From a virus (Duplodnaviria > Heunggongvirae > Uroviricota > Caudoviricetes): a DNA stretch of 27,070 nucleotides. How positions within the stretch are numbered: the stretch's first letter is position 1; the number at the start of each line of letters is the position of its first letter. This document shows, in pieces, positions 9,668 to 9,850 of this stretch. The stretch is from IMG/VR virus record IMGVR_UViG_2651869694_000009, positions 1 through 27,070 of that record. One strand, 5' to 3'. Position numbers and translations under genes: made by a program. A model generated the notes under the pieces. The model was given only the letters and a program-made list of their open reading frames with translations, did no database searches and was not told the origin of the DNA.

Positions 9668-9850
9668 ATGATCATGCTGATTCTCGCGCCTCTGGTGGGC
9701 GTGCTGGGTGCGCTTTTGCTGGCGTATGGTGCCTGGCTGATTTATCCCCCGGCGGGTTTTGTTGTTGCCGGGGCGCTGTGCCTGTTCTGGTCGTGGCTGG
9801 TGGCGCGATATCTCGATCGTACACAGCTGTCTGTCGGCGGAGGTAAATAG
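9668..9850 (+). CDS. Small hydrophobic protein (60 aa, two predicted membrane helices)
   Basis: ATG 9668 preceded by GGTAA. Almost entirely hydrophobic ([23 protein letters not shown]... [13 protein letters not shown]). Confidence 0.45.

What the first reader, a model, noticed from the sequence alone, without database searches (positions are those of the whole stretch)
9668..9850. 60-aa two-helix membrane peptide between large terminase and portal
An almost fully hydrophobic small protein sits inside the packaging module, in GC-rich DNA that looks native rather than acquired. Small membrane peptides in phages can act in lysis timing or exclusion.
Basis: inference. Interest (0 to 1): 0.2.

Follow-up and report, generated by a model that had tools for sequence, protein, structure and literature searches.

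The report
YmfR: portal-coupled phage membrane hairpin
The 60-codon ORF is a real, conserved gene (YmfR of E. coli prophage e14) that encodes a tiny two-helix inner-membrane protein; relatives of it sit directly in front of the portal gene in many tailed phages, and no function has been reported for it.

Summary
ORF 9668-9850 (+) encodes a 60-aa, strongly hydrophobic two-helix peptide that fills the gap between large terminase and portal.

It is not new. It is 59/60 identical to E. coli K-12 YmfR (b1150, prophage e14). It matches Sb3 of ST64B, SfII_03 and PHROG 502, and occurs in 1362 of 5426 complete E. coli genomes.

It is a genuine coding gene. Pooled pN/pS is 0.12 in this frame and 1.0-3.2 in four of the other five. 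The remaining frame is an unrelated antisense frame at 0.23. Length is fixed at about 60 aa, and the Shine-Dalgarno site is conserved.

A profile search finds 385 sequence clusters with the signature [16 protein letters not shown]. All 8 distant members whose context I checked lie immediately upstream of an HK97-type portal gene, usually with overlapping stop and start codons. Hosts include Proteobacteria and Firmicutes, and probably Actinobacteria. About two thirds of the sampled portal-bearing phages, HK97 included, lack it.

The window has a canonical holin/endolysin/spanin cassette elsewhere. Nothing supports a role in lysis or exclusion.

My preferred reading is an accessory, membrane-embedded factor that acts with the portal during head assembly. 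This is inferred from position only. Function remains untested.

The parts
7923..9656 (+). Large terminase (TerL), the upstream neighbour. Its stop codon TAA lies at 9654-9656, 11 nt before the ymfR start.
   Evidence: Pfam TerL_ATPase 8.5e-26 and TerL_nuclease 1.6e-34.
9659..9662 (+). Shine-Dalgarno GAGG, 5 nt upstream of the ymfR ATG.
   Evidence: Read from the sequence. The same GAGG-N5-6-ATG arrangement is kept in Mangrovibacter, Scandinavium, Erwinia and Citrobacter loci, and as GAGGxAxxCATG in most of the Reyranella loci.
9668..9850 (+). ymfR coding sequence: 60 codons plus TAG.
   Evidence: 59/60 identical to K-12 YmfR. PHROG 502 at E = 1.5e-27. pN/pS 0.12.
9668..9745 (+). Residues 1-26: first hydrophobic helix (TM1). 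It carries invariant P8, G11, G14 and G21.
   Evidence: Kyte-Doolittle windows of 1.8-2.7. AlphaFold2 helix 2-25. Invariant columns in alignment A1.
9725..9772 (+). Residues 20-35, [16 protein letters not shown]: the family signature around the helix-helix turn. This is the most conserved part of the protein.
   Evidence: Alignments A1 and A2. In the 124-sequence seed alignment: G21 99%, W23 84%, P28 83%, G30 90%, G35 100%.
9758..9805 (+). Residues 31-46: second hydrophobic helix (TM2).
9806..9847 (+). Residues 47-60: basic, polar C-terminal tail, predicted to be cytoplasmic. It evolves almost freely except for the terminal GGx.
   Evidence: In the tail pN is about equal to pS (0.52-0.75 against 0.58-0.81), whereas the core has pN 0.16-0.19. 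K+R residues are enriched at both termini and absent from the turn.
9839..9843 (+). GGAGG Shine-Dalgarno for the portal gene, lying inside the last Gly codons of ymfR and 6 nt before the portal GTG.
   Evidence: Read from the sequence. The C-terminal GG[EKD] is conserved across Enterobacterales, which a DNA-level SD constraint explains.
9848..9852 (+). TAGTG: the ymfR stop overlaps the portal start by 1 nt, forming a termination-reinitiation junction.
   Evidence: An overlapping junction (-1, -4, -8 or -11 nt) is found in 37 of the 43 loci that could be evaluated.
9850..11091 (+). Portal protein of the HK97 type (PF04860), the downstream partner.
   Evidence: Pfam Phage_portal at E = 5.1e-108.

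Best explanation
What is shown:
- The ORF is ymfR, a genuine gene of the late head/packaging operon of an e14/SfII/ST64B/P27-type temperate myovirus.
- It has its own Shine-Dalgarno site 11 nt after the TerL stop.
- Its stop overlaps the portal start (TAGTG), and the portal Shine-Dalgarno site forms its last glycine codons. Ribosomes finishing YmfR can therefore re-initiate on the portal gene.
- It belongs to a large family that is attached to the 5' end of HK97-type portal genes in phages of distant hosts.
- Many such phages lack it, so it is an accessory rather than a core part.

What is shown or strongly inferred about the product:
- It is a 60-residue helical hairpin that should insert into the inner membrane.
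- Both ends should face the cytoplasm, with a very short YPPAG turn at the outer face.

What is inferred about function:
- I think it most likely acts in head morphogenesis together with the portal.
- The glycine-rich helices would let several hairpins associate in the membrane. Natural tandem-duplicated versions exist.
- Co-translation with the portal on one mRNA would place newly made portal, or the packaging complex, at a membrane-attached site. This is loosely analogous to the membrane-bound gp40-dependent portal initiator of phage T4.
For: Gene reality:
- pN/pS is 0.12 in frame, against 1.0 or more in four other frames.
- Against distant Enterobacterales omega is 0.21-0.32, with synonymous sites near saturation.
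- Length is fixed at 60 aa in clusters seen on about a thousand contigs each.
- The Shine-Dalgarno site is conserved.

Identity:
- 59/60 identical to K-12 YmfR. RefSeq labels it ymfR in 1362 of 5426 E. coli genomes.
- PHROG 502.

Topology:
- Two hydrophobic helices.
- K+R residues are enriched in the N- and C-tails and absent from the turn.

Portal linkage:
- Nearly all genome loci with enough flank show the ORF just before a portal homolog. This holds even where TerL is only 20-25% identical. One exception, L108, is listed under evidence against.
- 8 of 8 distant representatives found by profile alone, with no use of context, lie directly upstream of PF04860.
- Stop and start overlap in 37 of 43 loci.
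- In locus L110, two opposite-strand genes (Usp and Fic) separate TerL from the hairpin gene, yet the hairpin stays fused to the portal.
- The prohead protease type varies (S78 or ClpP/S49) while the hairpin-portal pair persists.

Expression with lytic genes:
- There is no nearby promoter.
- e14 ymfR rises with the other e14 genes under an SOS-inducing drug, log2FC 4.52 (PMC10012262).
- ST64B late genes are silent in lysogens except under inducing stress (PMC7067206).

Oligomerisation hint: tandem two-hairpin members P0190, P0210, P0212 and P0249.

Precedent: the T4 portal initiator is membrane-bound and depends on gp40 (PMC9958956).
Against: - No experiment addresses function.
- The link to the portal is positional only.
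- The conserved residues lie inside the membrane or at the outer turn. The only sizeable cytoplasmic part, the C-tail, evolves almost neutrally. A conserved direct contact with the cytoplasmic portal is therefore hard to picture.
- HK97, TC7, WBeta, Shpa, phiL7 and other phages with the same portal family lack the gene and couple TerL directly to the portal. It cannot be a general requirement.
- Portal N-termini show no feature specific to phages that carry the hairpin.
- One locus (L108) has a homolog with no portal downstream.
- A frameshifted copy exists in a Shigella prophage (L092).
Confidence: 0.35

Rival explanations
1. It is a late-expressed accessory membrane protein whose job is not morphogenesis. 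Candidates are superinfection exclusion, fine-tuning of lysis timing (holin- or antiholin-like), or manipulation of a conserved host membrane machine. On this view it sits next to the portal only to share its timing and dosage.
For: - Its size and N-in/C-in two-helix architecture resemble class II holins or pinholins and many small exclusion proteins.
- PHROG 502 is filed under 'moron, auxiliary metabolic gene and host takeover'.
- The conserved residues are intramembrane or periplasmic. That fits a membrane target better than a cytoplasmic portal.
- The gene is dispensable in many portal-bearing phages.
- ymfR remains intact in e14, where terminase and portal are pseudogenes.
Against: - A complete holin/endolysin/spanin cassette lies elsewhere in the window.
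- There is no match to holin, exclusion or defence families.
- It has no promoter of its own, and its composition is native rather than moron-like.
- Holins and exclusion proteins are not normally conserved in sequence across phyla, nor bound to one structural gene. This family is both.
- Transcription follows prophage induction, not lysogeny.
Confidence: 0.25
2. The ORF acts mainly in cis as a translational coupler that sets how much portal is made relative to TerL. The peptide itself would be an incidental by-product.
For: - The stop/start overlap with the portal is conserved, and the portal SD is embedded in the last codons.
- The C-terminal tail is unconstrained apart from that SD.
- In several relatives the ORF start also overlaps the TerL stop.
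Against: - There is strong purifying selection on the amino-acid sequence (pN/pS 0.12).
- G, W, P and G positions are nearly invariant across Proteobacteria and Firmicutes while the DNA is saturated.
- Phages without the ORF couple TerL directly to the portal with the same kind of overlap, so no spacer is needed.
Confidence: 0.1
3. It is a virion-associated peptide carried at the portal or neck, or inside the head. On infection it would be released into the recipient's inner membrane to help DNA entry, as an ejection- or pilot-type protein.
For: - It is adjacent to the portal, as are genes for proteins that act at that vertex.
- A hydrophobic, glycine-rich hairpin could form a small membrane channel.
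Against: - Such a hydrophobic protein would be expected to insert into the producer cell's membrane. This is inference.
- Virion mass spectrometry of cluster J mycobacteriophage Omega lists 17 proteins including the portal, but no small membrane protein (PMC3706429). I confirmed a weak homolog only in the related cluster J phage Halley, and small hydrophobic peptides are often missed by mass spectrometry.
- No PDB chain resembles it, including solved phage portal and neck complexes.
Confidence: 0.08
4. It is not a gene: either a chance ORF, or a stretch that works as RNA or DNA. The SfII GenBank record, for example, annotates a rho-independent terminator inside it.
For: - The SfII record marks a 'putative rho-independent terminator' at the position equivalent to window 9676-9725.
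- SfIV and PY54 records do not annotate the ORF at all.
Against: - The terminator scan finds nothing on the + strand here.
- The RNA fold is no better than shuffled sequence, z = +0.21.
- There is no Rfam match.
- The substitution pattern is that of a coding sequence.
- A terminator between TerL and the portal would cut the late operon.
Confidence: 0.01

Closest known systems
E. coli K-12 YmfR (b1150, NP_415668.1), cryptic prophage e14
   Same: 59 of 60 residues are identical. The position is the same, between a terminase gene (aaaE/ymfN) and a portal gene (beeE). RefSeq uses the same name for the copies in 1362 E. coli genomes.
   Different: In e14 both neighbours are truncated pseudogenes. 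In this window TerL and portal are full length. YmfR has no assigned function: the papers I found mention it only incidentally.
Sb3 of Salmonella phage ST64B, SfII_03 of Shigella phage SfII, the 'putative integral membrane protein' of phiP27; PHROG 502
   Same: The DNA is 96-99% identical and the placement is the same. PHROG 502 matches at E = 1.5e-27 over the whole length.
   Different: No real difference; these are the same gene. Their annotation stops at 'membrane protein'. Some records mislabel it 'head-tail joining protein W', and some leave it unannotated (SfIV, PY54).
Phage T4 gp40 with the membrane-bound gp20 portal initiator
   Same: It is a phage-encoded factor tied to a portal whose assembly takes place on the inner membrane (PMC9958956). 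This is the closest functional model for my preferred reading.
   Different: The resemblance is an analogy only. No sequence comparison was made. From memory, T4 gene 40 is not next to gene 20. A role of YmfR in portal assembly is untested.
PRD1 P20 and P22, small membrane proteins of the packaging vertex
   Same: They are phage membrane proteins of about 5 kDa, each predicted to have one long and one short transmembrane helix, that form part of the DNA-packaging vertex (PMC4267777).
   Different: PRD1 has an internal lipid membrane that the vertex must cross. HK97-type tailed phages have none, so the structural rationale does not carry over. No sequence relationship is known.
Class II holins and pinholins (for example S21 68 of phage 21)
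   Same: They are similar in size and have two transmembrane helices, both ends in the cytoplasm, glycine-rich helices and a charged C-tail. The holin features are from memory; the YmfR features come.
   Different: YmfR is not in the lysis cassette, and the window has its own holin. It matches no holin family. Its M1-I-M3 start adds no charge. It is bound to the portal gene across phyla.
Lambda gpW (head-tail joining protein)
   Same: The genomic slot is the same, a small gene between the large terminase (A) and the portal (B). This is why some pipelines label YmfR as W.
   Different: From established knowledge, gpW is a soluble protein. YmfR is almost entirely hydrophobic (GRAVY +1.29) and matches no gpW family in Pfam.

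Membership tests
YmfR family (IPR020297 as named in the K-12 RefSeq record; PHROG 502) | Sequence similarity over the whole length to YmfR or PHROG 502 | tested here: met
   98% identity to K-12 YmfR. PHROG 502 at E = 1.5e-27, covering residues 1-55 of 60.
YmfR family (IPR020297 as named in the K-12 RefSeq record; PHROG 502) | About 60 aa with two hydrophobic helices joined by the [12 protein letters not shown] turn | tested here: met
YmfR family (IPR020297 as named in the K-12 RefSeq record; PHROG 502) | Located directly upstream of an HK97-type portal gene, downstream of TerL | tested here: met
   for the window. for relatives.
Class II holin / pinholin | Small protein with two transmembrane helices, N-in/C-in | tested here: inconclusive
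   Two helices and the positive-inside pattern are predicted. Topology has not been measured.
Class II holin / pinholin | Gene lies in the lysis cassette next to the endolysin | tested here: not met
   The lysis cassette is at 4358-5636 and has its own holin/antiholin (PHROG 126). ymfR lies 4 kb away in the head module.
Class II holin / pinholin | Match to a known holin family | tested here: not met
   No holin family appears in the Pfam, PHROG or NCBIfam results.
Class II holin / pinholin | Lethal hole formation when expressed | not testable with these tools
   There is only an indirect hint. The ASKA ymfR clone was spotted on 0.1 mM IPTG plates in a D-alanine export bioassay and scored positive in round 1 only. 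The authors note that such halos can come from export or from lysis (PMC10299036).
Superinfection-exclusion / defence membrane proteins | Expressed from the prophage in the lysogen, usually from its own promoter and as a moron | tested here: not met
   No promoter-like site lies near the gene. GC and GC3 are native. e14 ymfR rises with the other e14 genes on SOS induction. ST64B late genes are silent in lysogens.
Superinfection-exclusion / defence membrane proteins | Similarity to a catalogued defence or exclusion protein | tested here: not met
   PADLOC gives no hit at E <= 1.
Superinfection-exclusion / defence membrane proteins | Blocks infection when expressed | not testable with these tools
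   This needs a plating assay.
Lambda gpW head-tail joining protein | Soluble small protein of the gpW family | tested here: not met
   There is no gpW Pfam match, and GRAVY is +1.29 with two hydrophobic helices. Only the genomic slot is shared, so the label in some GenBank records is positional.
T4 gp40-type portal assembly chaperone | Phage membrane protein required for assembly of the portal initiator on the membrane | not testable with these tools
   Membrane character is predicted. The requirement for portal assembly needs genetics.
T4 gp40-type portal assembly chaperone | Sequence or fold relationship to gp40 | not tested
   No gp40 sequence was compared. Fold searches with the hairpin model gave nothing significant.
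Intrinsic terminator (as annotated in the SfII record) | GC-rich hairpin followed by a U-tract on the + strand, more stable than background | tested here: not met
   No + strand terminator-like site occurs in 9000-10500. The fold z-score is +0.21.

The most novel reading that the evidence does not exclude
YmfR-family hairpins are an unrecognised, widespread accessory component of HK97-type head assembly. On this reading a membrane-embedded, probably ring- or cluster-forming micro-protein is translated immediately before the portal. It would anchor or nucleate the portal, or the packaging complex, at the cytoplasmic membrane. Membrane-associated portal assembly, so far described mainly for T4 (gp40/YidC), would then be common among temperate phages of Proteobacteria, Firmicutes and perhaps Actinobacteria.
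Probability: 0.3. Interest if true: 0.6.

Novelty: already known. Interest (0 to 1): 0.35.

Why it matters
The gene itself is catalogued: YmfR in E. coli K-12, PHROG 502, and 'membrane protein' in many phage records. Finding it here is therefore ordinary.

What I found described nowhere is how strictly the family is tied to the portal gene.
- 385 sequence clusters match the family profile. All eight distant members whose surroundings I checked abut an HK97-type portal gene, usually with overlapping stop and start codons.
- This holds in phages of unrelated hosts, and even where the terminase or the protease has been exchanged.

That pattern turns an E. coli 'y-gene' of unknown function into a concrete, easily tested question. 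Do many tailed phages other than T4 use the cell membrane when they start heads or package DNA?

If the answer is no, YmfR would still be a compact model of a conserved two-helix membrane micro-protein made late in infection.

There is also a practical point. Annotation pipelines either skip this gene (SfIV, PY54) or mislabel it as lambda gpW.

Tried and rejected
- Pfam and NCBIfam scans of the window peptide and of five distant versions gave only sub-threshold noise.
- PADLOC gave nothing.
- A PDB profile search gave nothing at E <= 1.
- Foldseek searches of the AlphaFold2 hairpin against PDB and BFVD gave no match at E <= 0.001. A bare helical hairpin is not discriminating.
- RNA explanations failed: the fold z-score is +0.21, there is no Rfam hit, and there is no + strand terminator. 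The terminator annotated in SfII is therefore rejected.
- The alternative reading frames and the two overlapping ORFs (9672-9824 minus strand, 9759-9884 plus strand) show pN/pS of 1 or more.
- I looked for a portal N-terminal feature specific to hairpin-bearing phages. There is none: the hydrophobic MxGLF-type start also occurs in portals without the hairpin.
- Ten literature searches found no functional study. Fremin et al. 2022 (PMC9254267) is not held in the library.
- tblastn of the peptide against the phage collection under-reports the family, because the low-complexity filter masks the first helix.
- D3 orf3 and ShrimpFriedEgg gp3 occupy the same slot. D3 orf3 is a hydrophobic hairpin without detectable similarity. 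ShrimpFriedEgg gp3 is not hydrophobic. Neither was counted as a family member.
- The matches to Mycobacterium phage Halley gp11 and Vibrio phage K303 are weak (21-25 bits) and could be partly compositional. I treat them as probable members only.

Full report
**1.

- The + strand carries an ATG ORF from 9668 to 9850 that encodes 60 residues: [60 protein letters not shown].
- It fills the gap between the large terminase (7923-9656) and the portal (9850-11091). The terminase matches the TerL ATPase and nuclease domains. The portal matches Phage_portal at E = 5e-108.
- A GAGG lies 5 nt before the ATG. The stop codon overlaps the portal GTG by one base (TAGTG). The portal's GGAGG is made of the last glycine codons of the small ORF.
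- The peptide is very hydrophobic (GRAVY +1.29), with two hydrophobic stretches at residues 1-26 and 31-46.
- AlphaFold2 on a 29-sequence alignment gives two helices, 2-25 and 27-57, at mean pLDDT 73.
- GC (59.6%) and GC3 (65.6%) match the neighbouring structural genes.

**2. It is a real gene, not a chance ORF**

An ORF of this size alone means little, because 65 ORFs of at least 30 aa overlap the surrounding 6 kb. The substitution pattern is decisive.

- Among 25 distinct close DNA haplotypes, variable sites fall 7/2/15 on codon positions 1/2/3.
- Pooled pN/pS is 0.12 in this frame. It is 1.0-3.2 in four other frames, and 0.23 in the antisense frame that shares third positions.
- The two ORFs that overlap it fall in unconstrained frames.
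- Against distant Enterobacterales, omega is 0.21-0.32 with synonymous sites near saturation. The core (codons 1-47) is constrained: pN 0.16-0.19 against pS 0.53-0.68.
- The C-terminal tail is not constrained, apart from the GGx that doubles as the portal Shine-Dalgarno site.
- 167 clusters at 90% identity were found. The large ones, each seen on about a thousand contigs, are all exactly 60 aa.
- RNA-level explanations fail. The fold z-score is +0.21, there is no Rfam hit, and there is no + strand terminator, although the SfII record annotates one.

**3. It already has a name**

- The DNA is 96-99% identical to ST64B (sb3), SfI, SfII (SfII_03, 'putative integral membrane protein'), SfIV and phiP27.
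- The protein matches PHROG 502 'membrane protein' at E = 1.5e-27.
- RefSeq calls it ymfR, and 1362 of 5426 complete E. coli genomes carry it.
- In K-12 MG1655 it is b1150 in the cryptic prophage e14. It lies between the terminase pseudogene aaaE and the portal fragment beeE, under the product name 'IPR020297 domain-containing protein YmfR'. The window protein is 59/60 identical to it.
- I found no Pfam or NCBIfam family.
- The literature I could search mentions ymfR only incidentally. It is induced with the rest of e14 by an SOS-inducing drug. It is one of 392 ASKA clones of 'putative membrane proteins of unknown function' in a D-alanine export screen. It is lost when e14 excises.

**4. The family is large and bound to the portal gene**

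- A profile of Enterobacterales sequences, searched against 1.84 billion representatives, found 385 clusters at E <= 1e-3. Nearly all of the 150 listed are 45-110 aa.
- They share the signature ...G-x2-G-x6-[YF]GAW[LM][IV]YPPAG[FY][IV]xxG... between two hydrophobic helices. Near-invariant positions are G (97%), G (99%), W (84%), P (83%), G (90%) and G (100%).
- Positive charges cluster at both termini and are absent from the turn. This predicts that both ends face the cytoplasm and that the tight turn lies at the outer face.
- A few members are natural tandem duplications of the hairpin.
- The genome scan required the motif itself. In nearly every locus with enough flank, the ORF lies right before a portal homolog. 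One exception, L108, is covered in section 5.
- This includes Reyranella, Shinella, Rhodoferax, Lysobacterales and Ruminococcaceae. There the terminase is only 20-25% identical and the portal 29-39% identical to the window's.
- Eight distant representatives found by profile alone, with no use of context, were all directly upstream of a PF04860 portal. Their prohead proteases were of either the S78 or the ClpP/S49 type.
- The small-ORF stop overlaps the portal start (-1, -4, -8 or -11 nt) in 37 of 43 evaluable loci, many of which are close relatives of each other.
- In a Reyranella locus, two opposite-strand genes (Usp and Fic/DOC) separate the terminase from the hairpin gene, but the hairpin stays fused to the portal.

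**5. It is an accessory, not a universal part**

I sampled 14 phages spread across the similarity range of this portal family.

- PY54 has a clear, unannotated 65-aa homolog.
- PhiR49_2, Vibrio phage K303 and Mycobacterium phage Halley (gp11, 'membrane protein') have weaker homologs in the same slot.
- D3 orf3 is a hydrophobic hairpin without detectable similarity.
- HK97, TC7, WBeta, Shpa, phiL7, CJIE4-1, Javan65, NatCom_11578 and ShrimpFriedEgg have no such gene. Four of them join TerL to the portal almost directly (overlap or a gap of at most 9 nt) and two more within 18 nt.
- One locus has a homolog without a portal downstream (L108).
- One Shigella prophage copy is frameshifted (L092).

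**6. What it most likely does**

Shown:
- It is a translated-type coding sequence.
- It sits in the late operon with no promoter of its own.
- It is coupled to portal translation.

Supported by published data on related prophages: transcription follows induction rather than lysogeny.

Inferred: it is an inner-membrane hairpin that self-associates.

- The lysis idea is weak. The window has its own holin/antiholin, endolysin and Rz/Rz1 genes at 4358-5636, and no holin family matches.
- The exclusion idea is weak. The gene is not moron-like, has no promoter and has no defence-family match.
- The strict, deep linkage to the portal argues for a function that belongs with the portal. My preferred model is a membrane-embedded accessory factor that gives the co-translated portal or packaging complex a membrane site. 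The membrane-bound, gp40-dependent portal initiator of T4 is the nearest precedent. The small membrane proteins of the PRD1 packaging vertex are a more distant one.
- Several facts count against this model. The conserved residues are intramembrane or periplasmic. The cytoplasmic tail drifts freely. Portals with and without the hairpin show no distinguishing N-terminal feature. Many phages do without the gene.
- I therefore give the model only about 0.35. I give about 0.25 to a non-morphogenetic late membrane function, 0.1 to a mainly cis-acting coupler, 0.08 to a virion or ejection peptide, and the rest to functions not yet imagined.
- Virion mass spectrometry of phage Omega, a cluster J phage related to Halley, did not list a small membrane protein. 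This is weak evidence against a virion role.

**7. Verdict**

- The finding is real but the gene is already catalogued as YmfR.
- The added value is the portal linkage across phyla. I found no publication that notes it, and it gives a clear experiment.
- Interest is modest at 0.35. If the membrane-assembly reading proved true it would deserve about 0.6.

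Noticed in passing
window 5800-6823 (- strand): Two opposite-strand ORFs (208 and 117 aa; PHROG 12494 and 14397, both of unknown function) sit between the lysis cassette and the HNH/terminase genes. 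Their GC is 36.8%, against 52.7% for the window. This looks like an acquired moron.
   Followed up: partly
window 1632-2651 (- strand): A 339-aa opposite-strand ORF lies just after the Q-like antiterminator gene. It matches PHROG 6191 (unknown function) and has GC 42%.
   Followed up: no
window 4358-5778: A canonical lysis cassette: holin/antiholin (PHROG 126), endolysin and Rz spanin. An Rz1-like lipoprotein ORF (…LLPLLTGCGS…) is embedded in another frame of Rz.
   Followed up: partly
window 6893-7926: An HNH endonuclease gene lies directly upstream of a Terminase_4 (P27-type) small terminase. This is the HNH-TerS-TerL arrangement typical of cos-type HK97-like packaging modules. The same arrangement accompanies distant YmfR homologs.
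   Followed up: partly
window 24282-27070: A tail-fibre gene, two oppositely oriented tail-fibre-assembly genes (25064-25666 on +, 25638-26078 on -) and a DNA invertase (26519-27070). This looks like an invertible host-range switch, as in the e14 pinE region.
   Followed up: no
L125 (Yersinia phage PY54, NC_005069) 2295-2492; SfIV records KC814930 and NC_022749: A clear YmfR homolog (65 aa in PY54) is left unannotated in these reference phage records.
   Followed up: yes
GenBank records ON470603, ON470584, ON470580, PQ793804 (hits H1, H9, H13, H19): The gene is labelled 'head-tail joining protein W'. This is a positional mislabel: the protein is hydrophobic and unrelated to lambda gpW.
   Followed up: yes
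OR844959 ('Enterococcus phage Efm 3-10', 1764 bp); L084 ('Bacillota bacterium' MAG); L082 (Edwardsiella hoshinae): DNA 98-100% identical to this enterobacterial prophage region is filed under unrelated hosts. Contamination or mis-binning is likely for at least the first two.
   Followed up: no
L092 (Shigella flexneri CP182557, second copy) 4001-4179: A one-base deletion frameshifts ymfR, while the TerL and portal genes beside it remain 99% identical to the window's.
   Followed up: partly
L110 (Reyranella MAG) 1815-3868: Universal-stress-protein and Fic/DOC genes on the opposite strand are inserted between the terminase and the hairpin-portal pair.
   Followed up: partly
proteins P0190, P0210, P0212, P0249; loci L120, L123, L124: These family members are tandem duplications of the hairpin in one chain of 102-122 aa. 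The two whose context I checked (P0212, P0249) are still directly upstream of the portal.
   Followed up: partly
L139 (E. coli K-12 e14) 1171-3205: In e14 the terminase (aaaE/ymfN) and portal (beeE) are truncated remnants, yet the 60-codon ymfR between them is intact.
   Followed up: no
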